A DNA stretch of 64,000 nucleotides, taken from positions 77,438,001 to 77,502,000 of the forward strand of contig NC_134470.1 in assembly GCF_964194025.1 (NCBI RefSeq), given 5' to 3'. The notes beneath the pieces are model-generated. The model did no database searches, had not been told where the DNA came from, and saw only the letters and a program-made list of their open reading frames with translations. Below, one piece after another: positions 5,647-58,522 of this stretch (positions are counted from its first letter, which is position 1; each line of letters starts with the position of its first letter). The translations under genes were made by a program, and so were the position numbers. This DNA comes from Convolutriloba macropyga. Its lineage: Eukaryota.

Positions 5647-5780
5647 ATTGTCCTGACACCATTTTTTGCACTGAGCTACAAAATTTTCTAGGGGAAATAG
5701 AATGCTTCCTGGAGTTTAACTCCCTGCGGCCAAGTAACATCAAACAATTTAATCTGGATTTTTGAAGTTGAAATTTCGAA

Positions 5781-38602: not shown

Positions 38603-38763
38603 AGTAGTAGTGAAAATGCCTGTATTTTAACGGGGGGACCTGTCCCCCCCCCCCCCGTTAAAATACTGGCATGGCCTTTTTTAGTTATCCTCTTAGAATT
38701 TCCCTATAAGAGCGGAATAAAACTTAGCTGTTTCATTTAGTTCTTCGAACAGTTTCATGCTTT
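38603..38763 (+). repeat. Polinton left TIR
   Basis: AGTAGTAGTGAAAATGCCTGTA...CAGTTTCATGCTTT, inverted at 58365-58522. Confidence 0.95.
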
Positions 38764-39549
38764 CTTGTCTCAGCAAGAATTTAGACAAATCAAATTAAGA
38801 TAAAATTTTTTGATATTAATAAAATTTATAATGTAACGAACCTTGTACATCTGGCACATTGAAGACGGGGTCGAGAAAGTAATCGAAAATAAAATGGAGA
38901 AATAAGGTAATAACTATGAAACAAATGAAATTTCTCTTATTAATTAATATCAATCGTTCAATAAAAAAAAACGAAAACTGGCAAAATTAGAAACATTGAA
39001 GTTAATAACCAATACAAGGTACCAAAAAAAGAAACAAAACAAACCTACATCAAAGAGTTTCAATTTCTAAGCAGTTTTTGAGTTTCTCATTTTCTAATCA
39101 GTTGACTCCAATATTTTGTTGAATGCATTTGAACCACCCAACTGTTGCTAGCAAAAGTTTACCCATTATTCACAAAAACTATTTAACAGTAGCGCAAAAA
39201 TTCCCACAAAACTCAATTCGCCTAAATTTTTTTTATCAGCGTGTGAGCTCTTTAACGAACAAGAAACATTTGATCACGATATTACGCTTAAACTTAGACC
39301 GTACGTTGGTCTTATTGGAATTGACAATTCGTCGTTAGATTATCAATTTAAAAGTTTTAAAGTCCTTCGGTTACATGCAGTTTTGCGTGACGCTGGGTGT
39401 TTTATATACGAAAGATATAACCGAGGATCTGGATACTCTTATATGCTTCCGTGGAAAAGCAGCAACTGTTTTAGCGGTCATTTGTCGGGAGTTTTGTTTT
39501 GTTTATATATAAATGTTTTTCATCTGGCAATTTTTCATTTATTGGAACG

Positions 39550-40176
39550 CTGAGCAGCGAAACAGTTGTGTTAGACGTTGAAGGGTTTCGTCACAGAAAA
39601 GAAAAATTTATTGTTAAAGAACTTGGTGTTTGCACCGAGGACTATCTCGACTGCGTGTCATTTTTACCTTCAACAAGTTATAGTGAGTTAACAACTCAAC
39701 AAAAGCAATCTTTCAGTTGGTTGACTAAAAATTTGCACGGCATTGAGTGGGACCCAGGAAACTATCCCTACATTTATCTCACGCAAATAATTCAAAGCGT
39801 TCGCTTGAGGAATCCGGGTGCAATATTGTATGCTAAGGGAGAGGAAAAAGTAAAATTTTTGTCAGATTTGCTTGAGTGCTCTATTATTGATCTGAATTCA
39901 CTCGCGTGTCCTTCGATATCTGTGAACTAATTTACACAAAACTGTCAAAAACATTCAATGGGCAAAAACATTTTCAACAAACATTTTGCCAAAGAAAAAG
40001 CCATTTTCTATTTCAACTGGTTAACAAATGAGAGAGGAATTGACGAAAGTGGAAGCACCCTTGCCACCGAGTTCAACAGTTTGCGACTTGATTACGGGGG
40101 ACGGAAATCTGAGTCTTTCAATTTCCAAAGAGAAAACCATAAAAACCGGAAACCAGTTTTTACAGAGAAAAGTTAA
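39550..40176 (+). pseudogene. DEDD-fold nuclease-like protein resembling Maelstrom/arenavirus NP C-terminal domain
   Basis: VVLDVEGF...VKEL...LHGI...YAKG...IIDL, one in-frame TAA (39928), then CQKH...KH(F)A in the same frame as track ORF 39958. Start codon uncertain. Confidence 0.65.
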
Positions 40177-40321
40177 ATTGTTGCTGACTGAGGACGAAAT
40201 TCGCTCATTTACTCATTTAGTTTATTATATTGAACCTTTTCTTCAGTGGAGAAAGCAGAATGTCTCAACCCAGAGTCTGTCCTCCGAGACTCTTACTGAT
40301 GTCGAAACACCCGGTTGGTGA
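40028..40321 (+). CDS. Small hypothetical Polinton protein
   Basis: ATG-initiated 97-aa ORF in the gene-dense co-directional block; no motif recognised. Confidence 0.3.
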   Translation: MREELTKVEAPLPPSSTVCDLITGDGNLSLSISKEKTIKTGNQFLQRKVKLLLTEDEIRSFTHLVYYIEPFLQWRKQNVSTQSLSSETLTDVETPGW

Positions 40322-40545
40322 AGAAATTGACAAGAACGATCCTTCACTGCCGAAGGTGATTCAACACTTGGTGAAGGAAGAAAGAGTACACAAAATTGTT
40401 CCTTATGGAGAAAATGAGCGACTCCCGGAGTGCTTTGTGGTTCATATGAAAGACTTTCTAACTGACTTCAATTGATATGAATTGTTTTATATAGAGTGAC
40501 TTCTTCTCAATATATTTTTTTTAAAAAAAATTATTTTGTCCTGAG

Positions 40546-40821
40546 ATGGAGGGAGTAACAGTAGATCAAGCTGACGCTGTTGTAGAAGAAGGTTTTTTTG
40601 AAAAAGAAAGTAGCAGCAAATCTTCATGGAAATTTTGTAATCAAACAACGTTGCCACGGTCAGAAGTTGTATTTTTCGTTCAAATGTTTGTTATTTTACT
40701 GCTGATATCACTTTGTATTGTTAAATTAACCATTTTAAAACCAAATTTTGAAGAAACTTCAGTTTTGATATTAATATTGTCAAGTTTAGTTGGATGCATT
40801 TTACCAAATCCAAGACTATGA
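40546..40821 (+). CDS. Small two-TM membrane protein upstream of the packaging ATPase
   Basis: Two hydrophobic stretches ending LSSLVGCILPNPRL; its stop overlaps the ATPase start (ATGA, 40818-40821). Confidence 0.7.
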   Translation: MEGVTVDQADAVVEEGFFEKESSSKSSWKFCNQTTLPRSEVVFFVQMFVILLLISLCIVKLTILKPNFEETSVLILILSSLVGCILPNPRL

Positions 40822-41545
40822 ATAAGATTATATCTACGCATGATAGAGTCTTTATGGCCGTTGCAGGGCCTTCAGGTTGTGGCAAAACAGAGTTAATTTT
40901 TTAAATGTTGATTGCAAACATATTTTAACCAAAATTTAACAACATCATATTTTTATACAGAGAAATGCAACAAATATACTTCAAAATGGAGAAAACACTT
41001 GGTGTTACGTTTAAAAAGTACGCCAATTTGCCAATTTAGAATTTTTGAATAGCCTTGCAAACTGTCTTCTGATAATAGAGGACTCGTGCGAAGAAATTTA
41101 CAATGACAAAGAATTTGTTAAATTGGCCACTGCAGGGCGTCACAAAAACATTAATGTTATTTATATCAAGCAGAACCTTTATCAACAGAGCAAGTGGTCT
41201 CGTACAATAGACTTGAACACGACACATATCATTTTGTTCAAATCAGCCCGTGATATTCAACATGTCAAATTTGTAGGTAAACAGTTGAACCTTGTTACAT
41301 TTTTAAAACATTGCTATCAATTGGCAACGAAGGAACCATTTGGGCATTTGCTTATCGATCTTGATCCAAAGACTTCTGATTGTTTACGATACTGTTCATA
41401 TATTACTGAGCCAGGTCCTTCAGTTTTCTATCTTCCATCTGATAAAGCAGAAACAACTCCTCTAAACAATGAAAGAGAAAAAATTATCCATACTGAAGCA
41501 AATGGTGCATTTGCAGCCAAAACAATTAAGGAAATATTTGCGTAG
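40818..41545 (+). pseudogene. Genome-packaging ATPase (A32/FtsK-HerA family)
   Basis: Walker A GPSGCGKT (~40867), Walker B LLIIED, arginine motif AGRH, QNLY, IDLNTTHIILFK; two stops and a frameshift caused by a GCCAATT duplication. Confidence 0.93.
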
Positions 41546-41768
41546 TTGTGATAATGATGCTATACTGGTTTTGTGTGAATGTCTTCACAATCTTTTACTG
41601 GGCCAAGTTAGAGTGAAAGTATGAGACTTAGAAAATTACAGACACATATTTGAAGGCGTTCTCAAGAAAAAATCATCAATGGTTAAACGGCAAGCACTTC
41701 TACTAACAAAAACCGGTTTCCAACTGGTTCAAATCATTATTAAATTTTGTTTCATCCATTTGAGTTAA
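41502..41768 (+). pseudogene. Conserved small basic Polinton protein (CEC..N.L.G.V type)
   Basis: Hand translation MVHLQPKQLRKYLRSCDNDAILVLCECLHNLLLGQVRVKV*DLENYRHIF..., one internal stop; partial second copy from 42451. Confidence 0.6.
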
Positions 41769-43343
41769 GCAATCTCAACTTCTGAAGAGTTTATTTTGAT
41801 TCCCAAAAATCAGTTTATGACGGAGCAACCATTTTCCTCGCAAATTCTAAAAGATCCCAGAGTTCAGCATAGAAGTGCTCAATTTTCGTTTTTGAACAGT
41901 ATGCGACCAAATGAAAACACTGACAAAGAGAACCAAAAAATTTTGGATACAAGGGAAACAACTGATTCAACTGAGTTGTCAAAAGTACATGCAGACAAAG
42001 TTCTTCAAAATCTCAACATGCTAGTGCCACCGAAACTTACCAGGACGGAAAAAATGGTTAATCTCATTAAAGAGTCAAAAAACGTTGTTATAGACAAAAA
42101 AAGAGAATTTCATTGTTGGCGGAACAGCGACAGGAATAAATGTTCCCATTTTTCTCTATGACTGGCAGCAACCAACTACAAAAATAAATAATCCAGATTA
42201 TTTCAAGATTCTAGAGGCTTTAAACATAAAAGAGGACTTGGTGATCAACAGTAATGCTAAAATTGAGATCCGGAAAAGAACTCAAAGAGTTACCAAACCA
42301 AAAAGAAAAAGGAAACTTTTGCACCAAAAAAAATCAAGCACAAAGAAAACAGCCAATTACTTACAGAGGAATCCTCAGACGCCAGAAGTGGTTTCGAAAC
42401 CTCAAAGGAAGACAGAACTCAGCAAGAAAAGGACCGGGAGTTAAAATATATTTGCGTAGTTGTGATAATGATGCTATACTGGTTTTGTGTGAATGTCTTC
42501 ACAATTTTTACTGGGCCAAGTTAGAGTGAAAGTATGAGACTTAGAAAATTACAGACACATATTTGAAGGCGTTCTCAAGAAAAAATCATCAATGGATAAA
42601 CGGCAAGCACTTCTACTAACAAAAACCGGTTTCCAACTGGTTCAAATCATTATTAAATTTTGTTTCATCCATTTGAGTTAAGCAATCTCAACTGCTGAAG
42701 AGTTTATTTTGATTCCCAAAAATCAGTTTATGACGGAGCAACCATTTTCCTCACAAATTCTAAAAGATCCCAGAGTTCAGCATAGAGGTGCTCAATTTTC
42801 GTTTTTGAACAGTATGCGACCAAATGAAAACACTGACAAAGAGAACCAAAAAATTTTGGATACAAGGGAAACAACTGATTCAACTGAGTTGTCAAAAGTA
42901 CATGCAGACAAAATTCTTCAAAATCTCAACATGCTAGTGCCACCGAAACTTACCAGGACGGAAAAAATGGTTAATCTCATTAAAGAGTCAAAAAACGTTG
43001 TTATAGACAAAAAAAGAGAATTTCATTGCTGACGGAACAGCGACAGGTATAAATGTTCCCATTTTTCTCTATGATTGGCAGCAACCAACTAAAAAAATAA
43101 ATAATCCAGATTATTTCAAGATTCTAGAGGCTTTAAACATAAAAGAGGACTTGGTGATCAACAGTAATGCTAAAATTCCGATCCGGAAAAGAACTCAAAG
43201 AGTTACCAAACCAAAAAGAAAAAGAATCAAGCACAAAGAAACCAGCCAATTACTTACAGAGGAATCCTCAGACGCCAGAAGTGGTTTCGAAACCTCAAAG
43301 GAAGACAGAACTCAGCAAGAAAAGGACCGGGAGTTAAAATATA
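41537..43343 (+). repeat. Internal tandem duplication (41537-42450 / 42451-43343)
   Basis: Near-identical ~0.9-kb copies with AAATA microhomology at the junction. Confidence 0.95.
41796..42444 (+). pseudogene. Hypothetical Polinton protein upstream of integrase (copy 1; copy 2 at 42709-43340)
   Basis: Track ORFs 41796+42238 and 42709+43151 are near-identical, frameshifted at an A-run. Confidence 0.5.
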
Positions 43344-44229
43344 CGAAAGGTCCCGGAGCATAAGGAGGCATAAAAAATCTCCAAAAAAGCACAAAATTGA
43401 AACCAAGTAAAGTGAAATTGCTCCCAGAGGGCAAAAATGCCCACACAAAGCATAAAAATTATAGAAAAAGATTTCCAACACTGAAAGTTACTGCTTAAAA
43501 CATAAATGAGATTTGGTCGCTAGACTTGGCTTATGTGGATAAATTGGCAAAAGACATCAAAGTTGTAAAATATTTGTTGGTTGCGGTCGACTGTCTCTCA
43601 CCTTATCTACGCGTCGAACCCTTAAATTCAAAGTACGCTACAACAACAGCTGATGCGTTTAAGAATATGATAAAGAACAAGCAACCTAAAAAAGTGTGGG
43701 TAGATGCTGGTACAGAATTTAAGGGCTCCTTCAGCACTCTTTTTCAGAAAAAAGATATTGAAGTTTATAAAACATTCAGCGAAAAAAAGTCAGCATTTGC
43801 GGAAAGAAATATACGCGCAAGAATTTGATATACAAGTATTTAGAGGACAAATGGACATACTCGTATATTAATCAATTGCAGAGCTTTGCACAAACCATTA
43901 ACTCTAAAGTCAACAGAGCAACGGAAATGGCGCCCAATAAAGTTACAAAGAAAGACGTTCCTTACTTGATATCATTAATTTTTAATACATCAGCAAAACT
44001 ATTTCGTCGACAAAATTTTTACGTTGGGGACTTTGTGCGAATATCAAAAGCGGATCTTCCTTTTAGAAAAGGATACAAGGAAACATTTACCAACGAAGTT
44101 TTCGAGATTTACGATATACCTACAACAAATCTTCTAGTCGCAACCCAAGAGCCAGTCAAAGGAAAATTTTACGAGATAGAGTTGGTCAAAGTTAGAGACA
44201 TCAGTAGTGAAATAACAAAACATGAATGA
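43340..44229 (+). pseudogene. Retroviral-like (rve) integrase of Polinton type
   Basis: YTKGPGA*GG...RKRFPTLKV...NEIWSLDLAY (D), VWVDAGTEF (D), KSAFAERNIR (E), VGDFVRISK...FRKGYKETFTNEVF; two stops and one frameshift. True start not located. Confidence 0.93.
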
Positions 44230-45084
44230 ATTCACGGTCCACTTAGTTTCATCAGCCTCAATGATTATTTTCCCTCAAAGCACCTTGTCCTCATTCACAA
44301 ATTATTTCAATGAAGAAATTAATTTGGAGGGGGATTGGCGAGTTGCATTAAATGAAATTATCTTCCCGCCAGAAATAAATCAAGTGAACAAAAGTGATCT
44401 GAAGATATTTTCTTCTGAAGGCCTTAAGTTTAATGAGAAAAGTATTCCATTTGAAGCAGTCTCCAGACCATACGGAGGAGAACGAGCTACCATTGGAATT
44501 GGTTCCTATGAAAACCGTGACCATATTTTGAGATCCTTAAAAACAGCTAGCGGATTGCCTCATTTTGACTATCAATTTAACAAAATCAACGGAGTTTCAA
44601 TCCTCTTTTTTGGTAAAAACGAAGGAATTACTTTTCCGGATAACGAAATTCCAAGTATCCTAGGTTTCGAAGGTATTCATGATGGGCTTGGTTATCATAT
44701 TGGATACAAAATGTTGGACACTTTTGAAAATCTGACCATGGCAGATGACGAAGAAAAAAATTTGCTGGTGATTTTCCTTTTGATTTGTCTGCAGGGAAGC
44801 AACTGACTTTTATTTACGTTAACATAATTGAGTATCAATACGTAGGTGATACTAAAGCTCCGCTTATTCAAGTCATTGATTCAAAACAACGCCTGAAGAA
44901 GGGTAGCCCCTGCGAAATAGAGCCAACACACAGAACTGTTTTCAGCAACTTGGAATACAAAAAGTTACTATCAAAAAATTTTCAGTCAATTGAAATTCAA
45001 TTGCGGACAGAAACCGGACAATTAGTTCCATTCGTTGGAACGGGAAAAGTTATTTTGACATTAAATTTTAAAAAATTCGACTAA
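44222..45084 (+). pseudogene. Minor capsid protein (penton, single jelly-roll)
   Basis: MNEFTVHLVSSAS..FP...SSFTN....I.LEGDWRVAL.EI at the N-terminus and YVNIIEYQYVGDTKAPLI...SIEIQLR...LVPF..GKVILTLNFKK at the C-terminus; one frameshift near 44760. Confidence 0.88.
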
Positions 45085-45470
45085 ATGGAAGCCTACTATC
45101 AACAGCAATTGGTATCACCATAATTTTCAGGACACTATCGCCAACGAAGAACTGGTTTTGGGCTTTAGCGGCAGGTATTGGCAGAGCTGCATTACCGATT
45201 GCAAGAAAGTTTCTTTGGCCTGTAGCCAAAAAGTTTCGACGTGAATTAATTTTTCAAGCAGCTCCTGAGCTGGTAGAGGCTGTCAAAAAGAAAAAACACT
45301 CCCAAACAAGCACTGAAATCAACTGTCTGAAAAATTGTACAAAAACAAATTGGAGGATCATTGGTCAAAAAGAAGAACATCAAGAAAAAACAGACGAAAA
45401 AGCCGTTCAAAGACCATTCGCAGAAAACAACCTCTGTCGAGAAATCGGTCTCAATTCTTCTCTAAAGTTC
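45085..45470 (+). pseudogene. Basic core/membrane-active precursor-like protein between penton and MCP
   Basis: MEAYYQQQ...FSGHYRQRRTGFG, then (frameshift) amphipathic LAAGIGRAALPIARKFLWPVAKK and a Lys-rich tail; position and motif typical of Polintons. End approximate. Confidence 0.6.
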
Positions 45471-45473
45471 AAA

Positions 45474-46804
45474 ATGTTTACTAGTTTACTGCCCGCAGAG
45501 GCAACACACACCACACTTGATTTGTTTGAAAAACAACCTCTGCTAGTTACATTTGATAATGCTTTTACTCAAAAAGTTGGACCTTCCTACTCCCCTGATG
45601 GTCCAATGCTTGAGTTTGAAGTTATGGGTGACAGGAACGATTTCATAGATTTGCAAAAACTTCTCCTTGAAATTAAATGCAAAATCTCCCGAAACAATGA
45701 CGGTGATTTAAGGACATGAACTGATGCTACAAATACAGACTCGCCATACTTAAGCAACAACGCACTGCATTCTTTATTTTCGGAATGCACTGTATCTGCT
45801 AACGGTGTTAAAATTTCCAACACAAACGGAAATTATGCACACAAAGAATTCATTGAAACAGAATTTTTGTCAGGAAAAACTGCAAAAAACACATGGCTAG
45901 TTTGTCAAGGATATTATTACGAGGATGAGCCAGCAAAATTTGATGGCACCGACGGTCGCGCCGAGGATGTTACAGAGAGATAACCCTCGTAGCAAACTCC
46001 AATGAAAATTAATTAATTGGGAAACCATCCAGTGTCATTCTAACGTGTAATAAACACCTGCTCAGTGGTATTACTCTGAGAATTTCATTCAGAAGATCCA
46101 CAAATTCAGGAAGATCTGTTATTTCCTAGTCAAACATCTTTTACAAAGCTAAAATAATTGAGGCTAATCTGTATTTTAGAAGAATGACAGTATCGGATCA
46201 TGTTTTGACGGCAATTGAGAAAACTCTACTAAAAACACCTGCAGAGTATCGCTATACAGAGGTTTCACCAAGCAAATTTTTAGCTACGACTGGTGTTCAA
46301 AGTTGGAGACAACAATATGTCTTCTCAAAGGAACCAATTCGAAGAATGATTGTCGCGATGACAACAAACCGCGCGTACCTTGGCACAAATCGAACAACAT
46401 CTTTTCTTTATCAGAAGTTTGATCTGAGTCAAATTGTTATTTATCGTAACGGACTTCCAATAGTTGGCACGCCCATTTCAACCGCCTCTAATCAAAGGCT
46501 TTATTTTAATACGCTTGAGGCTTTAGATTTTCTTGATAATGGTCGTCCTGGCATATCTCTATCAGATTATCCCCACCATTTTATTATGGCCTTTGTATTA
46601 ACTTCAACACAGGAAGCATCACACGATTTTATTCACCCTGAACTGACAAACTGTTCAATTTCAGTTGAGTTAACGTTTTCGAGAGCATTGACAGATAACA
46701 TTGGAATTTTGTTTTTGGGAGAACGAAGTTCCACATTTTACGTGTCATCTGAGAGAAAAGTCACAAAAAACACACTTATTACATACCCAGTGACTAATGG
46801 TTAA
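45474..46804 (+). pseudogene. Major capsid protein (double jelly-roll)
   Basis: LDLF...LEFEV.G...FIDL, NNALHSLFSEC.V..NG..IS....YAHK.FIET, P.R.IVAM, F.LT...; several stops and frameshifts. Confidence 0.9.
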
Positions 46805-47081
46805 TAATGATAATGTTAAAATTGCCAAATTGATCAACAAATGTGTTCATTTAAAATTTCTGTTTTGCGGAGTATTCCCAGCTGATAGTTTTTCTAAGCT
46901 ATTTGCAGACTCTTTTATTGTAGTTAATGCATCCGATGCTGGAACTATAGGAACTCATTGCCTACTCGTCTGCAAAAAAAACGACAAAATTTATTTTGCT
47001 GATCCATTGGGAAATTCGCTGGAAATCTACTTGAGTTGTGACAAAATAAACTTTTTTGGTGGTATGCAAACGCAAAATTAG
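46797..47081 (+). pseudogene. Adenain-like cysteine protease, truncated copy A
   Basis: FCGVFPAD...IVVNAS....GTH(C)...YFADPLG; C-terminus deleted at 47032. Confidence 0.8.
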
Positions 47082-47182
47082 CAATTTTATTTTTGTCCAA
47101 GTTTGGTTTACAAAAGAAAAGAAGAAAGCGGAATGACTTTTGAAATTGTCGAAAATAATCAGGAGAACGTTCGTAAATTGCG

Positions 47183-47644
47183 TCAGCCATTGTATTTGTC
47201 TATCCTGTAGGCTAAGTTCTTTTTCTGTGCTAGATGTTTCTTGACTTTCGATAGGGGTTGACTCTCGCTTTCAGAATTCGTATCGTTGGTTGAACGAATA
47301 TGTTGTGAAAATCTATCGTTCTCGCCTTCTTTTCTTTTATTCGCCTTAGATGTAACTTTTGGAGGCTCAGTTTGTACTGTTAAAGGAACCTATGCGTCCT
47401 TTGAATCGATCAGATCTCTGATTCTGTGGATATGTTCCGCTAGTCTATCAAATTCTGAAAGAGAAAGGTTTACTTTTTGGGAGAGTTTGTAATCATCATC
47501 ACTTTGGTTGTTCCTTCTGAACTGTTTTATTGCAACATAGGTACCAGAAGTTTCATAGGTTTTAGTTGAGACCCTTACATTTCTTTTTGCAGTTTCTGAG
47601 ATATCAAATTCTATGTCTTTCTCGAGGGTCTCAGATTTTTCCAT
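47183..47644 (-). pseudogene. PC4-like ssDNA-binding protein (copy B at ~50081-50495, partly deleted)
   Basis: RNVRVS...YVAIKQF...KVNLSLSEFDRLAEHIHRI follows the PC4 pattern (R.VSV...IDIRE....KGISL..EQW..L...I..I). The TAG at 47390-47392 is GAG in copy B, extending the frame to 47183. Confidence 0.55.
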
Positions 47645-49035
47645 TTTTATGCACTCAGCTGCTATACTGTTTATTACAAGAGAATAAAATCAAATGAATT
47701 GTTGGAAAAGGAAATAAAGTTGAAGTACTACACTTTATGCAAAACACATTATCACAGAGCTGCTAGACTTTGAGCACTACAAAAATGTGATTGGTCGACA
47801 ATAATTCCTCAGAACCTAAATCGTATTAATATAAAACCATAATTGCGAAGAAACTCTAGTGTATTTGAGCTATAGTCTACAGTACATAGCTTTCAAGAAA
47901 CCCAATTACAATAAAATAAAAGCAAATGTTAGAAATTGAACTTTGGTCCAGGAGTGATAAAACCCAGACCAAATACCATAAAAACTATACGCAATTTAGC
48001 CAACTTATTGAACAGAATACATCTTATCTCTGGGGTCAATGTCAAAACCATAAGATAATAAAATACACTCTGTTAAGTTGTTTGCCAAAAGCAATCGCTT
48101 ATCAGTCTGGGTTTACACCTGTTCTGAATTTAACTTAGTGCAAAACTTTGTATAAACAAATAAAACTTTACGACATACAGTTCTCAACCACAATACGCAA
48201 GTGTTGAAAAGTGAACAAATTCCTTGTTTATATTCCTTGAGCATTTTGTCGTTTTCAACAGTCAAATTTTTGTTGCAGTTCTTGAAATAAAAAACATAAA
48301 ATGTCTCCAGTAGTTATTATTCTGAAAAACGAGAAAAGCTTAGAGAAAAGAACAATAGCTTTTGAAACAAACCGGAAAGACACAATCGTTATTATTGAAC
48401 AAGTATGGACGAAGGATACCTGGGTTACATCAAATCACATGTCACTTCCGGTTGTTATGTTTGTTTTGACCCAGTCATTTCGTTTTATTGGATTTCGTAA
48501 CAAATTACACCAGAGAGTTTATAATTGACACCTTTGTCCTTGAAACAAATGTTCGGAAGATCTTCTACGACTACGACTTGAAAGAAATTCCTTTATACGA
48601 AAATCAAGAAGGATATTGGAGAGATCTCGAAAAGCTCGAGGCTCTCTGGAAAATTCCCAATAGTGATAGCCATGATTGGGAATTTAATGACAGTGAAAAC
48701 TATCTGAATTTCCCACCAGAGACTCCTACTACACCAGTGTTTCTATCAATAGATGATCTCAACTGCTCGGACAGTCAAATGACTCCACCCGCATGGCGAT
48801 GTCTTGCACCCAAAAAACGAAAAAAATGTCAGTATTTCTGACAAAGATTGAGGAAATCGGATCCAGAGAAAAGCTGATAAACAGAATGAAACTATATTGA
48901 AGAGAAAAAACTGCTATAATGTTCAATTTATTCAATCTTACTAACTCTCTAACACAATATTGAAACGAATGAAATTGTACTATCTTTTGAAATTTTTTTT
49001 ATTGTAGCTAACTCTTGAGAACAAACACTACAATG

Positions 49036-49425
49036 AATGTGTTCATTTAAAATCTCTGTTTTGCGGAGTATTCCCAGCTGATAGTTTTCCTAAGCTATTT
49101 GCAGACTCTTTTATTGTAGTTAATGCATCCGATGCTGGAACTATAGGAACTCATTGGCTACTCGTCTGCAAAAAAACGACAAAATTTATTTTGCTGATCC
49201 GTTGGGAAATTCGCTGGAAATCTACTTTGCAGTTTGCAAACAGCTAAACAGTTTCTATGGAGAAGTGATTCAACTGTATACATTGATACCAATTCAAAAA
49301 ACTAACTAAAAACTATGTGGTCTGTTTTGTATTTAAATTGCTCATGTTATTTTTAGCATTAAATACTCTTACACAATGTACATGAATGATGATGACTTAC
49401 TCCGATTTGCAAAGCAAATGCTTTA
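49036..49425 (+). pseudogene. Adenain-like cysteine protease, copy B (5'-truncated, catalytic residues present)
   Basis: GTHW (His), FADPLG (Asp), PIQKTN*KLCGLFC (Gln/Cys); frameshift and stops. Confidence 0.85.
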
Positions 49426-49471
49426 ATTCATTTTTTTAGTTACTCCTCTGTTTTCAGTTAAAGAAACGATC

Positions 49472-50088
49472 TCAATGAAAATTTAGTTTTTTGTAATTTT
49501 GTTCAAATACAAATTTTACAAACAACGTTTCACTGTCAACATTAAGCAAACCGTAACCACTAAGTTTAATATCAATAATTTTTGAAAATTCAGCGTAGTG
49601 TTCATTGTAATATATCTCCACAAAGCGTTGATTAGTCAAAAGTGGTACAAAGTCTGTTTGAGTTTGAACATTTTGATTTACAGCATGGCAAATGCTGGGT
49701 AGTTTCTTCATAGAAAAAAGTTTCTGTGCAGATTCTGTTGTTGTAGACAGTAGTCAACTGCGTCAATAAGTTTTTCCAAAATTGGTCCGTGAACATCGAA
49801 CCCGTCCAAATCCTAAATGAGACATTTAAAGCAGGTAAACAAACACGGTATTGCATAAGCTTTTGAGCTGTCGGTTCCTTCTAAGCTTGATAGTTTTTCA
49901 GATGAAATTAGGACATGGAAATGAACAGAAGAGTTGTGACAAAATAAACTTTTTTGGTGGTATGCAAACGCAAAATTAGCAATTTTATTATTGTCCAAGT
50001 TTAGTATACAAAAGAAAAGAAGAAAGCGGATTGGTTTTTGAAATTGTCGAAAATAATCAGGAGAACGTTCGTACATTGCGTCAGCCAT
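49472..50088 (-). pseudogene. Hypothetical ~200-aa protein with an HUH-like motif
   Basis: Track ORF 49813 (AYHQK...VHFHVLI) reads through one TAG and one frameshift into ORF 49472; truncated copy at 47033-47190. Confidence 0.45.
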
Positions 50089-50777
50089 TGTATTTGTCTA
50101 TATTGTAGGCTAAGTTCTTTTTCTGTGCTAGATGTTTCTTGACTTTCGATAGGGGTTGACTCTCGTTTTCAGAATTCGTATCGTTGGTTGAACGAATATG
50201 TTGTGAAAATCTATCGTTCTCACCTTCTTTTCTTTTAATTGCCTTAGATGTAACTTTTGGAGGCTCAGTTTGGACTGTTAAAGGAACCTCTGCGTCCTTT
50301 GAATCGATGAGATCTCTTTGGGAGAATTTGTAATCATCATCACTTTGGTTGTACCTTCTGAACTGTTTTATTGCAACATAGGTACCAGAAGTTTCATAGG
50401 TTTTAGTTGAGACCCTTACAATTCTTTTTGCAGTTTCTGAGATATCAATAAACTGATCGCAGAATTCTATGTCTTTAGGGTTTCAAATTTTTCCATTTTT
50501 ATGCACTCAGCTGCTATACTGTTTATTACAAGAGAATAAAATCAAATGAATTGTTGGAAAAAGAAATAAAATTGAAGTACTACACTTTATGCAAAACACA
50601 TATTCACAGAGCTGCTAGACTTTGAGCACTATAAAAATGTGATTCGTCGAGAATAATTCCTCAGAACCTAAATCATATTAATATAAAAGCATAATTACCA
50701 AGAAACTCTAGTGTATTTGAGCTATAGTCTACAGTACATAGCTTTCAAGACACCCAATTACAATAAAATAAAAGCAA

Positions 50778-50990
50778 ATGTTAGAAATTGAACTTTGGTC
50801 CAGGAGTGATAAAACCCAGACCAAATACCATAAAAACTATACGCAATTTAGCCAACTTATTGAACAGAATACACCTTATCTCTGGGGTCCATGTCAAAAC
50901 TATAAGATAATAAAATACACTCTGGTAAGTTGTTTGCCAAAAGCAATCGCTTATCAGTCTGGGTTTACACCTGTTCTGAATTTAACTTAG
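50778..50990 (+). CDS. Small hypothetical Polinton ORF (copy A at 47926-48138)
   Basis: ATG ORF present in both duplicate copies; no motif recognised. Confidence 0.3.
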   Translation: MLEIELWSRSDKTQTKYHKNYTQFSQLIEQNTPYLWGPCQNYKIIKYTLVSCLPKAIAYQSGFTPVLNLT

Positions 50991-51152
50991 TGCAAAACTT
51001 TGTATAAACAAATAAAACTTTACAACATACAGTTCTCAACCACAATACGCAAGTGTTGAAAAGTGAACAAATTCCTTGTTTATATTCCTTGAGCATTTTG
51101 TCGTTTTCAACAGTCAAATTTTTGTTGCAGTTCTTGAAATAAGAAACATAAA

Positions 51153-51734
51153 ATGTCTCCAGTAGTTATTGTTCTGAAAAGCGAGAAAAGCCTAGAGAAA
51201 AGAACAATAGTTTACGAAACAAACCGGCAAGAAACAATCGTTATTATTGAACAAGGATGGACAACTTTTACCTGGGTTACACCAAATCACATGTCTCTTC
51301 CGGTTGTTATGTTAGATTTCATCCAGTTATTTCGTTTTGAAAAAGCATTACTAAAAGGCTCCCAGTACACATTGGATTTCGTAACAAATTACACCAGAGA
51401 GTTTATATTTGACACCTCTGTCCTTGAAGCAAATGTTCGGAAGATCTTCTACTACTGCGACTTGAAAGAAATTCCTTTATACGAAATTCAAGAAGGATAT
51501 TGGAGAGATCTCGAAAGTATCGAGGCTCTCTGGAAAACTCCCAATACTGATAGCCCTGATTGTGAATATATTGACAGTGAAAACTATCTGAATTTCCCAC
51601 CAGAGACCTCTACTACACCAGTATTTCGATCAGTAGACGATCTCAACTGCTCGGACAGTCAAGTGACTCCACCCGCATGCCGATGTCTTGCACCCAAAAA
51701 ACGAAAATTTGTCAGTAATTCTGACAAAGATTGA
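51153..51734 (+). CDS. Hypothetical 193-aa Polinton protein (broken copy A at 48301-48841)
   Basis: Intact ATG ORF with S/T-P-rich tail and PKKRK. Confidence 0.55.
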   Translation: MSPVVIVLKSEKSLEKRTIVYETNRQETIVIIEQGWTTFTWVTPNHMSLPVVMLDFIQLFRFEKALLKGSQYTLDFVTNYTREFIFDTSVLEANVRKIFYYCDLKEIPLYEIQEGYWRDLESIEALWKTPNTDSPDCEYIDSENYLNFPPETSTTPVFRSVDDLNCSDSQVTPPACRCLAPKKRKFVSNSDKD

Positions 51735-54658
51735 AGCAATCGGATCCAGAGAAAAACTTGATAAACAGAATGAAACTATACTGAAGAGAAAAAACTGCTA
51801 TAATGTTCAATTTTTTCAATCTTACTAACTCTCTAACACAATATAAAAACGAATGAAATTGTACATTCTTTTGAAATTTTTTATTGTAGCTAACTCTTGA
51901 GAACAAACACTACAATGAATGTTTTGGAAAGCAACAGAGGGATACTACTGGGACTAGTACTTGGTAAATTTTTAGGGGAAACAATAAAAAAAAGAGAAAG
52001 ATCAAAGAAATCGAACAATTTCAACATTTATCATAAAACCATAATATGTGCTCAGTTGAGAAAAACGACTAAAAATTTGCAAAATTCTGAAAATACATAA
52101 CAAAAAATCTTCTCTTGTGTGAGCGGGTGTCTGTAAAACATACCGCTTATAGTGTTGCTCTATTGTTGAAATACATTCAACAATTCATTAAACGAAAAGT
52201 GGACAAAATCAAAAAAATGAAAAAATCTCGATAATTTTGCACAACAAACAAATACAAAATTTCCAAAGTTATTTTCCCTTTTGAGGAAAAATTTTTTGCT
52301 GAAAACACGATTTTTGGAATCAGCGACCTCGAAAACATGGCGTAGCCGCCGTTTTCGACCCGTTTTTAACGTATTCTGTTATAGTTTTTAAAGATTTTTG
52401 GACCCCCAAATTCTCCTCTATAGGCTCCAATATTGTACTCTGAAAGAAATGTAAAAACGAAAAAGAAAGTTTAAAAAGGGCACTTTCCCCTCTTTCAATG
52501 AGGTCCTAAATCTTAAGCATCATCTCTAGTATCTCTAGTATATATTCTAATCAGAGTGTAAGAGAAAGCTCACATTTTTTTCAAGTTAAAAAAGCGAAGC
52601 ATTTTTAATGAAGAATAAAAAAAAACTAAACTAAAGGAAGCGTAAAGGTTTGAATTTAGCGAGTACCGAAGAAGTACTTGCGGTGGATTGGCGCAGACAC
52701 AAGGTGGAAAAGGTTTTCCAGACTTGTGTTCCTCTTTTCTTCAGGGGTAAGGAATATTTTGGTATTTCATAAGATCAACCAGGCGGAAGTGCTCATTTCC
52801 AGCAACGTCGAGCATCATTACCAGCCCCTCAATAGTTTTTAGAAGAATTCCTGTATAATTTTTTTTTGTGGAGGGTGGACTCATTGAATATCACCGTTAT
52901 TTCTTTGATGATATGTTTTCTGTAGGGGAAGATATAGGAGCGCGAGAATGATTTTTGTTCACAATCCAAATTAGAATTTAGAATTGCGATTAGAATTTGA
53001 AAGAGAGTTAATAGACTAAAGAGACTGAAAAGTGTGACTTAAATGCAAAATTTGGAAAATGAGGGTAGGTGATCTTCCGGTTGCCAGCTACTAATCAAAG
53101 TTTACTACCAATATTTAACACATTTAACCAAACCCAAAACAAAAATAAAATTTCCTTACAAAATAGACTTGATACAGAAAACCAGTTGTTACCGCTGGCT
53201 TTGATCCTGTGGAACTTCAATCGAGCGGTAGGCCGCACCTTGGCACCCCAGAGTGTAAAACATAAACTGGCGGTACGTTTGACCAAAACATTGTTTAACA
53301 ATTGAATTAGGAATAAGGAGTGGTGACCATTCAACTCAAATTGATTTTAAGTGGGTTGTATCTGAGCTCCATTCCCTTTGGGTACCGAATCAATCGTAAA
53401 AACTTCGAGTCCTTCGGAAAACTGAATGAACACAGATTATAGCCAAATGTTAAGGTTAAATTCAAAGAACTGATAAGAACAAAAATGTTTATGGAAAAGA
53501 GGGTGTATCTGAAGTCTACGTAAGTTCCTCTCAAGCTAGAACACCGTTAGGATTGGGCGTAGTGGTTTCATTTGATCATTCTTTTCGGTACGAAACACTC
53601 ATTTTCAAAAAATGGTAGCTATCAGAAAGTTGATCAAACTCAAACTTTGCCTACTGTTTGCTTAAAGCTATTTGCGGAAATGAGCTGCCAGTGTGATATC
53701 TGCCAGAAAATTTTTCAAGTTTCCACAGCTTAAGAAGACATCGAAAGGCGATGCACAACATCAAAACCCAGAACAAGCCACTTCAATGCAATGATTGCAA
53801 CTTCGAATCACCGTCGCTAGTCGGAATGATCCAACATACAAAGCAACTGCATGGATCCGAAACCATTCATCATTGTGTTTTTTGCAGCAAAACTTGTTTA
53901 CTGAAATCAGTGTTCGACGATCATATGAATCTAAATCACGGAATGCCCCAGTGGAGAAACAATGGATGCAGTGGTGACCTACCCGTGATGTCAGCAATAA
54001 GTTACGGTCGATTCAATTGTACACGTCAGGCAACGAAAACGACATGCTTGAGTATCTCATGAGTCAAAAACATGAGATTCAACAGATCATCAGAAGTGAG
54101 ACTGCAGCGTGACCGAAGAAAATTCAATTTGCAGCAAAAATAAAAATGTTGAAAGACGTATCTGAACAAGAAGAACCAGAACACTTCAATTTTTTCATAA
54201 ACTCAGAAATAACCATTGTCTACCCTGGGGAGAATCTGGCAGATGAAATGTTCTGGAATAAAGTTGAACAAATAATAAACAGTATCTCGAAAGTAACAAC
54301 AAATGGAAGCGGATTGGCGTTTCGAAAAGCTTCTGTAATCCGAAATAAAAATTGTCAAGGTTCTCCCCAATTCGTGCTGGCTCCTACATTGCTTTGCCAG
54401 TGAAGTACCAATCAGAGCAATCGCTACTGAACATCAGGAACTATCAAGATCCGATATGCTTTCTGTTTTGCTCCACTTATTCTATGGACCCCCACTCGTG
54501 AACGAAGACACCACTTGGCGAACAAAGCGAAGTTTTTCTCTGTACGGACCAAAAAACCCAAAGGCTCATCAACCGTATGGTAATCACCAGATGCTTATGC
54601 CTGTGGACGAAATTGGTATATTCGAGAACGAAAACGATGTCCAAATAAACGTTTTTCG

Positions 54659-54761
54659 TTGAGTCAAGCTTTAGATATATTTTATGGTTTAGCAACTTTA
54701 GTAACAATTTCAACTCATTCTTCTACGATCCAAAAAACAGCAATATTTTTCTTTGTTTCAG
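54659..54761 (+). other. Putative spliceosomal intron 1 in pPolB (donor degraded to TTGAGT)
   Basis: Acceptor TTTTCTTTGTTTCAG; removal joins INVFR to LNEKEELIPY...VVDLLLL in frame. Confidence 0.55.
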
Positions 54762-57328
54762 ACTTAACGAGAAGGAAGAACTCATACCGTATTGAGTTCC
54801 CAAGAAGTAGGATCAAGAATTTGTGGTTGACCTTCTGCTACTAAGCGACGGTAAAATTTTCCACTACGCCCTCATCACTGAGTTGGTAAATTTAGTACAG
54901 AAAGTTCGTGGTAGAAAACTTCATTCACGTTCTCAAAATTGCCGAAATTGTTTTCATGTAAATAGCAACATTGAAGTAATGGAAAGACAAAAAAACTTTG
55001 TAGCAGCTATGAAGCGGTCCACATTAAAATGCCGAAAGAGAATGCGTGCATTCTAAAATTCAAAAAGTTTCAAGCCAGGTCCTTTGCCCTGATTGTGTTA
55101 CATTTCGACCTAGAGTCTCATCTACTAAATGTGCACACAGCATTGAATAACCCAAAAATAAGTTCAAGTAACAACATTGAAAAACATGTTCCGTCGGGCT
55201 TTTGTATAACAGTCCACACAAAACAGCTAATGTTCAAATTGGTACGCTCACCAAACTGTATGTCCGATTTTATAAAAACAATAGAAAGTCTAGCATATGA
55301 TATTCACAACAGAAAACAACAACATAAAATCTTCACTGGTCAGCTCGGTCAAACCACAAGTGAAGCTAAAGCCTGCTGGACCTGTGGTTTGGTTTTCAAT
55401 GCACAAGATATCAAAGTGTTAGATCATTGCCACTACTCGGGTGAGTTCCTCGGTTGGGCGCACAAAACATGCAACTTGAAGCGTAGAAGTCTAAATTTCA
55501 ACCCCGTGGTTGCCCACAACCTATCAAACTATGACTTGCATCATATATGTCAAGCTATTCAATATTGCAGCTCTAATAGTAAACTGCAAGTTATCCCTCA
55601 AACAGATGAAAAGTATATATGTCTGATAACCAGAGTAAAAGTTGGCGAGTACAAAAACAAAAAAGGAGAAGTGATTGAATTTTTCAAAAATATGCGCTTT
55701 CTCGACTCTTTCCGATTCATGGGACTGTCACTTGAAAAATTGGTGTCTTTTTGCCTACAGAGGGATTTAAATTTTTTGATAACCATTTCGAAGAGAAATT
55801 TGCAAAAAAGCAAATAAAGTTGTTGCATCAAAAAGGTTTGTACTCTTACAGTTACTTTGACAATTTTGAAAGGTTCAGTGAAAAACGTTTGCCTCCCCTA
55901 AACAAGTGGAAAAACACATTAGCTGGTTGTGAAGTTTCTATAACACTGGAAAACCTGGCGCATGCTAAACAAGTTTTCCGAACGTTTAAATGCAAAACAT
56001 TGAGCGATTATCACGATTTGTATCTGACAACTGACACCCTACTGCTGGCTTGTGTGTTTGAAAAATTTCGCAAAGTGTGCTATGAAACTTATGGCCTTGA
56101 TTGCGCTCAGTATTTCTCTGCAGCAAACTTAGCGGGTGATGCATATCTCAAAACATGTATTATTAACGTTAGGCTGCTTGAAGAGAGAGCATCTTGATAT
56201 GGCAGGAAGTCTTATGCGCGGTGTTATGTCCTCAGTTTACTCGAGTAGACTTTTCAAAGCTAACAACAAATAATTGCCGGATTTTGATAAAACAATTGAG
56301 AGTTCCTTCGGTTTCACAATCGACGCAAATAATCTCTATGGGGGCATAATGCAAACCTGTTGTCTACCAATTGGTGATTTTGAGCTCGTTGAGATGTCAC
56401 TGAGTGAGCTGTTGCAAACCCCAGAAGACTCACCATACGGCTTCATCGTGGATGTGGACCTGGAATATCCCCCGAAATTGCACGACATTCAGAGTGACTA
56501 TCCACTTGCTCCAACCAGAGAGTCTGTCCAAGTTATCTGGTTGAGTCAATACCAGGAGAATCTGAGAGAGAAAATGAATGTAAGGGTTAGTACGAAGAGC
56601 AAAAAACTGCTCCAAACTATGTTTGTCAAGCCCCACTATTTAACACTTTACACTATTTAACTTTACAGCTGTATTCGGAGCTTGGTCTGAAAGTGACTAA
56701 AGTTCACCGAGTGCTCAGATTCTTGCAAGGATTTTGGTTAGCTCCCCATATAGAGTTGAATAGCAGAAAGAAAGAGCAGGCTGCAAACAAATTTGACGAA
56801 AATTTCTTCGAATTAATGATAAATAGTGTGTACGGGAAAATGTGTGAAAATCCGAGAAAACTTACCAACGTCATGCTAGTAAGATCCAAGAAAGAGCTGC
56901 TAGAACAAAGCGCAAAGTTTAACTTTAAGTCGTTCAAAGTTTTTAACCCGAACCTGCAGTAACTCTTCGTCGCACTGAGTTCACTTGATTAAAGCCGTTG
57001 ATCATTGGAGCCACAATACTGGATCTCTCCAAGATGTTTATGTTCAGGTTTCATTATAAAATAATGAAAGAAAACTTTGCTTGCAAACTTTAGTACAGTG
57101 ATACAGACTCCCTGACGTATGCAATTATGACAGGAGACCTCTACGGTGACCTTAAAAACCATCCCATTCTTTATAAAGAATTCGATTTTTCGAACTACCC
57201 AAAGGAAGCAAGCCTCTACAACCCGAGCAATAAAAAGAAAGTCCTCAAAATCAAAGATGAACTGGCGGGATCAGTAATGACAGAATTTGTTGGAATCAAA
57301 TCCAAGATGTACTCCATAATCACAGCAG

Positions 57329-57510
57329 GTATGTTTTTCCAATTGTTTTACTTATCCAAAAAAACTTTGCAATTATGGTCTTTAAAATTCTGAGACTTCT
57401 AGATATGTTTAATCAAAGCAAACAACTCAAAATTTTTTAATATAAAACCAAAAGGCTAACAAAATTCCGGTAACGAAAAACGAGGAAAAAGATTTGTTTT
57501 TCTCATTTAG
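57329..57510 (+). other. Putative spliceosomal intron 2 in pPolB
   Basis: CAG|GTATGT donor, TTTTTCTCATTTAG acceptor; removal yields KSKMYSIITADTQKKSMKGI. Confidence 0.8.
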
Positions 57511-57716
57511 ATACCCAGAAAAAGAGCATGAAGGGCATATCCCTCTCCACACAACGCTTATTCAATCACCAGTCTTTCAAAAAAGTCCTTGAGCAACAAT
57601 TTTTACAGTACGCACGATCAAAGTTTATTGTCTGCCTACGACGATAAACGCTTTATTTTCGACGACGGTATAACAAGCTACCTTTTGGCCACTAATTGTA
57701 GACGAAGTTTGCATGC

Positions 57717-58064
57717 GTGAATAACTGGGACGTAAATATGGACAACACCAACAATTCTGAAGGGGCAGAAACTACTCTTGGTAACGGCGACGAACGCCCG
57801 GAAATACAAAGTTTGAATTCAAGCACGCTGGGTGATAGGTCAGACAACAGTTTCAAGGAGACAGATTGGGGTTTCCTTCAACGCACGTCCAATGAAAGTG
57901 AGTTGGAAGTACATAGCTGTGAAGTGAGCGAGGAACCGCGAACACCCAGTCATAACGAATTCATTTTATTTGAAGCTGAAGAGAGCGACGAGGAAACCCC
58001 AGTTGTTCCTCACAAGCGTGCACGGCGTTTAATTTTATATGAATCTAGTTTTGACTCCAATTAA
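57717..58064 (+). CDS. Acidic low-complexity ORF after pPolB (separate gene or polymerase tail)
   Basis: 115-codon open frame rich in E/S/D, ending KRARRLIL. Confidence 0.35.
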   Translation: MNNWDVNMDNTNNSEGAETTLGNGDERPEIQSLNSSTLGDRSDNSFKETDWGFLQRTSNESELEVHSCEVSEEPRTPSHNEFILFEAEESDEETPVVPHKRARRLILYESSFDSN

Positions 58065-58364
58065 AAACAATCAAAAACTTGCTTTAAACTTTTTTGCATG
58101 TTGGTAATTTAGTGAACAGAACTGGTAAAATTTATGGAAGAAAAATTTTGTTTGTGTGCTGATAATGTGCCGGGCAAAATTAGCCCGTATTTTCTTTATT
58201 CCCAACGGTTATTGATTAGAAGCAAAAGTTTGGACTAACGCCTTGAAGCTAATTAAATTCACTTGTACTTTTATCTCTGATAAGCTAAGAAAAGAATGCA
58301 GAAATTGTTAATACAAACACCAACCGACTTTCATGGTTAGAAAGGGGAAAACAAAATTCAACTC

Positions 58365-58522
58365 AAAGCATGAAACTGTTCGAAGAATTAAATGAAACAG
58401 CTAAGTTTTATTCCACTCTATGTTAGGGAAATTCTAAGAGGATACCTAAAAAAGGCCATGCCGGTATTTTAACGGGGGGACAGGTCCCCCCCCGTTAGAA
58501 TACAGGCATTTTCACTACTACT
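58365..58522 (-). repeat. Polinton right TIR
   Basis: AAAGCATGAAACTG...GCATTTTCACTACTACT, inverted match to the left TIR with a few mismatches and indels. Confidence 0.95.

What the first reader, a model, noticed from the sequence alone, without database searches (positions are those of the whole stretch)
49472..50495. PC4-like SSB gene coupled to a small HUH-motif gene: a possible ssDNA nicking module in a Polinton
Seen: two minus-strand genes with overlapping stop and start (ATGGCTGA). The second reads RFLLFF...FAYHQK...VHFHVLI (HFH at 49915-49923)...TCFKCLI. Knowledge: Rep_2-type HUH endonucleases (pMV158 RepB) show FLLY, an upstream His, HYHVL and a Y-L motif in similar order; here TGT (Cys) is one change from TAT (Tyr). 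HUH nucleases are not part of the canonical Polinton gene set. Inference: with the TIR hairpins, this might be a nicking/excision or rolling-hairpin accessory system. The evidence is short motifs in a pseudogene, so this is a hypothesis only.
Basis: inference. Interest (0 to 1): 0.7.

Follow-up and report, generated by a model that had tools for sequence, protein, structure and literature searches.

The report
Tyrosine-less HUH protein in Polintons
A virus-like jumping element in this animal genome carries a conserved gene pair. One protein is predicted to fold like a single-strand DNA binder, and the other is predicted to fold like the nicking enzymes of rolling-circle viruses but lacks their cutting tyrosine, so it likely grips the element's DNA rather than cutting it the usual way.

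Summary
The gene pair is real. It is a broken copy inside a 19.9-kb Polinton (38603-58522). Open copies elsewhere in the genome encode 158-aa and 201-aa proteins. Gene 1 models as a PC4-like ββββα fold, a gene type already labelled in adintoviruses. Gene 2's N-terminal domain models as a Rep/NS1-type HUH fold: the top 7 rows are all HUH Reps, but at only Z 4.3-5.3. Three His and two Cys are kept in 93-95% of 102 homologues. The HxH gene sits beside the protease gene in 20 of 20 sampled copies, is under purifying selection (dN/dS 0.10-0.26), and is kept by multi-copy families with no polymerase hit. Best reading (0.5): a captured Rep/NS1 nuclease domain turned into a metal-stabilised DNA-binding protein that works with an SSB. 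Tyr-independent cutting is not excluded (0.22). I did not find it in print in my searches.

The parts
38603..38763 (+). Left terminal inverted repeat of the Polinton, starting AGTAGTAG; G-run/C-run hairpin at about 38616-38672
   Evidence: 89% inverted match to 58365-58522; z -7.45, 0 of 200 shuffles as stable; flank GGCTTG against GGTTTG on the right = 6-bp target duplication, 5 of 6 match
58365..58522 (-). Right terminal inverted repeat
   Evidence: (z -4.46)
50081..50496 (-). Gene 1, PC4-like ββββα domain with a basic/acidic unstructured tail; broken in this copy (frameshift near 50477, in-frame deletion near 50314)
   Evidence: fold from a related family's copy
49472..50088 (-). Gene 2, N-terminal Rep/NS1-type HUH domain (about aa 18-111) plus a small helix-helix-hairpin C-terminal domain; broken here (stop 49813-49815, frameshifts near 49718 and 49492)
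49915..49923 (-). HUH motif (H56-x-H58)
   Evidence: His in 94 of 101 and 97 of 102 rows
49939..49959 (-). Upstream conserved His44 (49957-49959) and Cys50 (49939-49941), likely third and fourth metal ligands
   Evidence: 94 of 100 and 93 of 100 rows; His44 region aligns to the RepB His39 strand
49822..49845 (-). Motif-III helix: conserved Cys82 (49843-49845) and the variable position 89 (49822-49824) where Reps carry the catalytic Tyr
   Evidence: C82 97 of 102; Tyr at 89 in 21 of 102; register inferred by eye
46945..47689 (-). Partial duplicate of the pair: gene 1, and gene 2 cut off before the HUH; part of a tandem duplication (46840-49043 against 49036-51925) that also splits the protease gene
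46794..47081 (+). Adenovirus-type protease gene, 5' part (remainder near 49036-49400), tail-to-tail neighbour of gene 2; label recalled from motifs
43499..44229 (+). Retroviral-type integrase (broken)
   Evidence: Pfam rve E 1.1e-6, below the curated cut-off
54975..57393 (+). Protein-primed DNA polymerase B fragments (broken); label recalled from motifs
   Evidence: weak Endonuclease_7 hit E 0.034

Best explanation
Gene 2 encodes a conserved protein predicted to fold like a Rep/parvovirus-NS1 HUH nuclease domain; it keeps the metal-binding histidines but lacks a conserved catalytic tyrosine, so it likely acts as a metal-stabilised DNA-binding protein on the Polinton's own ends, with the neighbouring protein, predicted to be PC4-like, likely holding the melted single strands. 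Shown: the gene pair, its conservation, synteny, purifying selection and the absence of any invariant Tyr. Predicted: both folds. Inferred: a His3-Cys metal (probably zinc) site; capture from a parvovirus-like NS1 or other Rep; binding to the termini; helping the polymerase (own or borrowed), the integrase or the packaging ATPase load there. This is the role that the nick-dead origin-binding domains of SV40 large T and papillomavirus E1 play (recalled).
For: Fold: 7 of the top 7 and 13 of the top 15 rows in the wide search are HUH-fold chains, including nick-dead E1 and large T (best RepB Z 5.3, rmsd 3.4, 89 aligned); 17 of the first 17; 21 of 22 named viral rows are Rep/NS1. H44, C50, H56, H58 and C82 at 93-95%; best Tyr columns 72% and 70%; 29 of 84 rows with all three His have no Tyr in the whole motif-III helix; Tyr89 needs 7 changes on a 70-row quick tree. 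RepB-family controls keep the Tyr in 10 of 10 rows. dN/dS 0.10-0.26 in 7 unsaturated pairs, like the protease at 0.16-0.18. Beside the protease in 20 of 20 sampled copies and in an independent metagenome contig. Kept in 18 of 18 copies of three families with no polymerase hit beyond it, with Leu at position 89 in the 16 printed. Two invertebrate parvovirus NS1 entries show the same H..C..HYH layout but keep the Tyr (compared by eye).
Against: Z of about 5 is below the tool's caution level of 8 and only about 1 above the best unrelated row (4.3); no Foldseek hit reaches E 0.001; profile-profile probability against RepB is only 10.9%, over the two His strands. A full metal site kept at 93-95% is what an active nuclease would also keep; nick-dead E1 and large T domains lost these His (recalled). 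Nothing here shows binding to the termini, and the ends differ between families. The C-terminal domain has no assigned fold.
Confidence: 0.5

Rival explanations
1. A Tyr-independent HUH nuclease: the His/Cys metal site activates water, or the invariant Cys82 serves as nucleophile, to nick single-stranded or hairpin DNA at the element's ends for excision or end resolution.
For: Three-His site intact and C82 in 97 of 102 rows on the motif-III helix; the Cys before the HUH coexists with Tyr in two NS1 entries, so it does not by itself mark a dead site; polymerase-less families keep the gene and one has a fold-back end of about 240 nt; a non-Tyr (His) nucleophile is known in the relaxase MobM (recalled).
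Against: C82 is seven residues before the Tyr position and, by the RepB layout, probably about 10 Å from the metal (inferred); hairpins are absent in 3 of 7 families folded; no shared loop sequence seen; the integrase can make 3'-OH ends (recalled).
Confidence: 0.22
2. A transcription module: the PC4-like protein is a co-activator and the HUH-derived protein a sequence-specific activator of the capsid genes, as parvovirus NS1 is (recalled).
For: PC4 is a transcription cofactor as well as an SSB (PMC7549692 passages); the pair is kept where the polymerase is lost but capsid, protease, ATPase and integrase genes stay; an earlier unchecked note reports a TBP gene in another Polinton of this genome.
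Against: No activation domain or promoter target identified; the fold matches are replication initiators; no expression data.
Confidence: 0.17
3. The first reader's canonical tyrosine nickase, with the Tyr at motif III or supplied from Y113 or Y179 or by another subunit.
For: HUH fold and motif; Y113 in 71 of 102 and Y179 in 55 of 76 rows.
Against: Position 89 is Tyr in 21 of 102 and scattered on the tree; Y113 is Phe in 17 rows; both Tyr columns are about 20 points below the His/Cys columns in the same rows; 0 of 15 close rows have Tyr89.
Confidence: 0.07
4. The fold match is a chance likeness of a small α/β zinc domain unrelated to HUH proteins.
For: Middling Z, no significant sequence match.
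Against: HUH chains from plasmids, CRESS viruses, parvoviruses and polyoma/papillomaviruses fill the top of three searches, and the HxH falls on the central strand (E56-62) with His44 ending the preceding strand.
Confidence: 0.04

Closest known systems
pMV158 RepB origin-binding/nuclease domain (Rep_2 / Rep_OBD, PF01719; PDB 8amu, 3dkx)
   Same: Joint best fold match (Z 5.3, rmsd 3.4, 89 aligned); His on the strand before the HUH, as His39 with His55/His57 (PMC5030251 passages); about 200 aa with a small C-terminal domain and no helicase.
   Different: No conserved Tyr99 equivalent; Cys instead of Asp42 in the loop (inferred); below the Pfam cut-off (2 of 102 rows at E 0.079); encoded by a linear integrating element.
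Parvovirus NS1 nuclease domains (ichthama-/chaphamaparvovirus rows; Parvo5797 and Parvo5276 NS1 in PMC11071296 supplement file 2)
   Same: Best named viral fold rows (prob 0.99, TM 0.37-0.38, E about 0.01); same H..C..HYH[VI]L layout by eye. Capture of NS1 by a larger dsDNA virus has a precedent in fowl adenovirus ORF12 (passage).
   Different: No SF3 helicase; motif-III Tyr not kept; an extra invariant Pro-Cys before the helix. Descent from NS1 was not tested by a tree.
Nick-dead origin-binding domains of SV40 large T and papillomavirus E1
   Same: Same fold (Z 3.5-4.2); no catalytic Tyr; model for the proposed role (their inactivity is recalled).
   Different: Those lost the His pair and are fused to a helicase (recalled); this family keeps three His and stands alone.
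HUH endonucleases of Mriyaviruses and Mriya-like PLVs (PMC11253617; bioRxiv 10.64898/2026.06.19.733378)
   Same: HUH gene in a mid-size double-jelly-roll dsDNA virus.
   Different: Predicted active and paired with helicases and no polymerase; here the gene lacks the Tyr and sits in integrase/pPolB Polintons of an animal.
PC4-like proteins (human PC4, Burkholderia BPSL1147, phage T5 homologue) and PC4-labelled adintovirus genes
   Same: ββββα fold (human PC4 Z 6.5, rmsd 2.8, 64 of 66 aligned; Foldseek prob 1.00); 35 'PC4' occurrences in an adintovirus annotation file.
   Different: No sequence-level membership: Pfam PC4 in 1 of 14 rows at E 0.13, and no match to the host's PC4 exon.

Membership tests
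HUH Rep/NS1 tyrosine endonucleases | Rep-type α/β fold | tested here: met
   pLDDT 86.9 model; top 7 rows HUH Reps, Z 4.3-5.3, rmsd 3.1-4.0, 81-89 aligned; moderate strength only
HUH Rep/NS1 tyrosine endonucleases | Conserved His-hydrophobic-His on the central strand | tested here: met
   94 of 101 and 97 of 102 rows; strand E56-62
HUH Rep/NS1 tyrosine endonucleases | Further metal ligand on the preceding strand | tested here: met
   H44 in 94 of 100 rows, aligned with the RepB His39 strand; geometry not inspected
HUH Rep/NS1 tyrosine endonucleases | Invariant catalytic Tyr in motif III | tested here: not met
   Tyr in 21 of 102 at the inferred position; no Tyr column above 72%; 29 of 84 rows have no Tyr in the helix; control RepB set 10 of 10
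HUH Rep/NS1 tyrosine endonucleases | Fused SF3 helicase (CRESS Rep, NS1) | tested here: not met
   199-229 aa in open copies; longest of the 150 listed of 452 representatives is 318 aa, no Pfam hit in 11 longer or odd members
HUH Rep/NS1 tyrosine endonucleases | Hairpin origin with a conserved nick site | tested here: inconclusive
   Terminal hairpin in 4 of 7 families folded; loops differ
HUH Rep/NS1 tyrosine endonucleases | Nicking and covalent protein-DNA adduct | not testable with these tools
   needs a bench assay
Rep_2 / Rep_OBD (PF01719) | Score over the curated cut-off | tested here: not met
   2 of 102 rows at best E 0.079; 0 matches in the genome
PC4-like fold, type II | ββββα topology | tested here: met
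   (related family's copy; four strands 14-61, kinked helix 62-79)
PC4 (PF02229) | Score over the curated cut-off | tested here: not met
PC4-like fold, type II | Homodimer that binds ssDNA | not tested
   no complex model or assay
Polinton/Maverick | TIRs with AGTAGT ends and 6-bp target duplication | tested here: met
   end motif as in PMC8097293 passage
Polinton/Maverick | Integrase, pPolB, ATPase, protease, capsid genes | tested here: inconclusive
   integrase by Pfam rve E 1.1e-6; the other labels are recalled from motifs in broken frames and come from no call

The most novel reading that the evidence does not exclude
These Polintons carry a tyrosine-free HUH nuclease that cuts by water or cysteine chemistry and, with its own PC4-type SSB, releases or resolves the element's ends. 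That would supply the missing excision step of Polintons and explain how polymerase-less, fold-back-ended families keep multiplying.
Probability: 0.2. Interest if true: 0.85.

Novelty: new variant of a known kind. Interest (0 to 1): 0.52.

Why it matters
How integrated Polintons leave the chromosome and start replicating is unresolved (recalled). Here a whole lineage of them has fixed a Rep/NS1-like domain next to an SSB-like gene, and keeps both even after losing the polymerase. If the protein is inert, it is an independent case of a nickase turned origin binder, and unusual in keeping its metal site. If it cuts, it is a new HUH chemistry. Either result can be had from a 200-aa protein and short oligonucleotides. 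The PC4 half alone is ordinary for this virus group.

Tried and rejected
Cys-from-Tyr decay in this copy: rejected. Translational coupling through ATGGCTGA as a conserved feature: rejected, overlap in 2 of 13 families. Sequence searches that named nothing: Pfam; PDB sequences (Mcr-1 and DdmE hits at E 0.02-0.1 taken as chance); ESM Atlas, no usable hit; plasmids; IMG/VR, 53 pattern hits and 0 relatives. No endogenous NS1 helicase found for a tree, and that search's control rang nowhere. No RNA holder listed; this says nothing on expression. The C-terminal domain was not folded alone. The careful tree did not finish; the quick tree is quoted. Literature: paper searches and term look-ups in PMC8502044, PMC11071296, PMC8097293, PMC10748475, PMC11296320 and bioRxiv 2025.02.07.637071 found no HUH gene described in animal Polintons. 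PMC11071296 file 2 was cut when stored, figures are not held, bioRxiv supplements are closed and subscription journals and Repbase were not searched, so an existing label cannot be excluded.

Full report
Setting. The finding lies in a Polinton/Maverick bounded by inverted repeats at 38603-38763 and 58365-58522, with AGTAGTAG ends and a 6-bp flank duplication matching at 5 of 6. Broken frames for an integrase (Pfam rve E 1.1e-6), ATPase, capsid proteins, protease and pPolB lie inside (labels other than the integrase are recalled from motifs). A tandem duplication (46840-49043 against 49036-51925) left a partial second copy of the pair at 46945-47689.

Observation. The overlap ATGGCTGA and the HFH at 49915-49923 are there. 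By itself the motif is weak: 65% of 2571 shuffles of the element give such a motif. A DNA search of the genome gave 67 matches from 40 scored candidates. In the 30 loci fetched, natural open frames give a 158-aa gene 1 and a 201-aa gene 2. The window copy is a pseudogene of both.

Gene 2 family. A single-sequence search gave 52 homologues, many at 32-48% identity. A profile search gave 452 clusters at 50% identity, of which 150 were listed; many are fragments or decayed copies and none is named. In a 102-row alignment (chosen for length and coverage from the 196 proteins and the genome copy) five residues stand out: H44 94/100, C50 93/100, H56 94/101, H58 97/102, C82 97/102. The best Tyr columns are Y179 55/76 and Y113 71/102 (Phe 17). 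Of the 84 rows that keep all three His, 16 have Tyr89 and 29 have no Tyr in residues 83-93. On a quick tree of the 70 of those rows that are at least 170 aa long, Tyr89 needs 7 changes. In the 15 close rows (14 open copies plus the window) it is Cys 13, Phe 1, Ser 1. Ten plasmid RepB-family proteins used as control keep the His pair, the upstream His and the Tyr in 10 of 10.

Fold of gene 2. The model has mean pLDDT 86.9. Against 48,161 chains the first seven rows are RepB, nanovirus, circovirus and vientovirus Reps (Z 4.3-5.3, rmsd 3.1-4.0, 81-89 aligned), and 13 of the first 15 are HUH-fold, including E1, large T and AAV Rep. The best unrelated row has Z 4.3. The second look gives 17 of the first 17. 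In the viral library no row reaches E 0.001, but 21 of 22 named rows among 50 are Rep or NS1, the best being ichthama- and chaphamaparvovirus NS1. Each score is middling, and the tool warns that Z under 8 can be a common arrangement; the case rests on the consistency plus the HxH on the central strand. Profile-profile alignment to RepB covers only the two His strands (probability 10.9%). The motif-III register is therefore my inference by eye: strand Y-A-I, then P-C-L-x-x-x-F-x-89-L, lines up without gaps with RepB's strand and M-Y-L-Y99-L (Tyr99 and ligands His39/Asp42/His55/His57 from PMC5030251 passages). The conclusion that no Tyr is invariant does not depend on that register. Two invertebrate parvovirus NS1 entries in the supplement of PMC11071296 show His..Cys..HYH[VI]L followed by a Y-L motif III. 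This suggests an NS1-like donor, and shows that the first Cys is compatible with a Tyr-bearing site.

Gene 1. A related family's open copy, folded with 68 rows, gives four strands and a kinked helix, the type II PC4 topology (PMC7549692 passages). Foldseek ranks PC4 homologues of Burkholderia and phage T5, Pur-alpha and MoSub1 first (E 0.01-0.04, prob 1.00). VIA gives human PC4 Z 6.5 over 64 of 66 residues, tied with a propeller that covers only the strands. There is no sequence-level membership. PC4-labelled genes are already in an adintovirus annotation file (35 occurrences).

The module. The order capsid, protease, then HxH and PC4 on the opposite strand recurs across the diverged families. 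Of 150 protease hits I took 20 where I had not yet noticed an HxH hit: 20 of 20 have the HxH gene and 18 of 20 the PC4 gene within 2.5 kb. The sample is limited to relatives of this protease. An independent metagenome contig has the same order. dN/dS is 0.10-0.26 in 7 of 8 HxH pairs (1 saturated); 0.10-0.17 in 4 of 8 PC4 pairs (3 saturated, one close pair 0.99); and 0.16-0.18 in 4 protease pairs. The overlap is not conserved (2 of 13 families).

Ends and polymerase. The window's ends fold into a G/C hairpin (z -7.45 and -4.46). Of 10 other families, 6 had an end that could be folded: 3 hairpins, 3 not (rough doublet shuffles, one start possibly misplaced). pPolB was found in 7 of 10 sampled elements. 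Two of the other three are TIR-bounded elements of about 13.1 and 12.6 kb with integrase, ATPase, capsid, protease, HxH and PC4 but no pPolB hit; one has a fold-back end of about 240 nt. In 18 further copies of those three families, pPolB was hit in 0 in the stretch beyond the HxH gene, an element end was matched in 17, and both window-family controls had pPolB. Their other arms were not searched. The 16 motifs printed have Leu at position 89. The ends of the 4 copies of one such family are 81-88% identical to the window family's first 96 nt, which fits borrowing a polymerase in trans. This extends an earlier unchecked note on a polymerase-less, hairpin-ended Maverick with a Rep-like gene, and adds that the protein lacks the Tyr even there.

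Mechanism. Most likely (0.5) the HUH domain was captured, lost its nucleophile, kept a His/Cys metal site, and now binds the element's own DNA at or near the ends while the PC4-like dimer holds melted strands; the binding target and partners are inferred. A Tyr-independent nuclease (0.22) remains open because the metal site is as conserved as in active enzymes. A transcription role (0.17) fits PC4's other function and retention in polymerase-less families. A canonical Tyr nickase is unlikely (0.07), and a chance fold likeness less so (0.04).

What is known. Active HUH genes are described in Mriyaviruses and Mriya-like PLVs (PMC11253617 and bioRxiv 10.64898/2026.06.19.733378, passages). I saw only passages or term counts of PMC8502044 (main text and one supplement file), PMC11071296 (main text and six files, one cut), PMC8097293, PMC10748475, PMC11296320, PMC4046053, PMC6431247 and bioRxiv 2025.02.07.637071, and search listings. 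None describes an HUH-fold gene in animal Polintons. Unseen figures, supplements, Repbase and subscription papers could hold a label. Verdict: a real, conserved, probably lineage-limited module; a new variant of a known kind; interest 0.52.

Noticed in passing
L091:1078 to L130:674 (G000 C7) and L097:1114 to L132:230 (G000 C3); L136-L153: Three multi-copy Polinton families with no pPolB hit that keep integrase, ATPase, capsid, protease, HxH and PC4; one shares its terminal 96 nt (81-88%) with the window's family, suggesting a non-autonomous partner.
   Followed up: partly
window 38603-38700; L089, L093, L095, L101, L103, L108 termini: Every folded family end has a run of six or more G about 25-45 nt inside the terminus, whether or not a hairpin forms; a candidate binding site.
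   Followed up: no
window 46840-49043 and 49036-51925; 41534-42450 and 42448-43343: Two internal tandem duplications in this copy, of about 2.2 kb (splitting the protease gene) and 0.9 kb.
   Followed up: partly
window 51138-51734 (+), duplicate 48286-48841: Unassigned gene of about 190 aa transcribed away from the PC4 gene, conserved across families and moved to the other arm in polymerase-less elements; no Pfam hit.
   Followed up: no
L097:4075-5135, L091:4321-5405: Two accessory frames before the ATPase: one resembling a parvovirus-type phospholipase A2, one a DEDD/Maelstrom-like gene (labels recalled).
   Followed up: no
window 53697-54062: C2H2 zinc-finger-like frame just before the polymerase fragments (weak Pfam hits).
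   Followed up: no
window 28591-29200, with inverted partner 24322-24632: Long near-perfect palindrome (204-nt arms, 11-nt loop) outside the Polinton.
   Followed up: no
window 1960-5660 and 36343-37563: A 15-nt tandem array and a tandem array of about 205 nt units.
   Followed up: no
L064:1168-2181: A copy in which the PC4 and HxH frames run together as one 337-aa frame; single case, probably decay.
   Followed up: no
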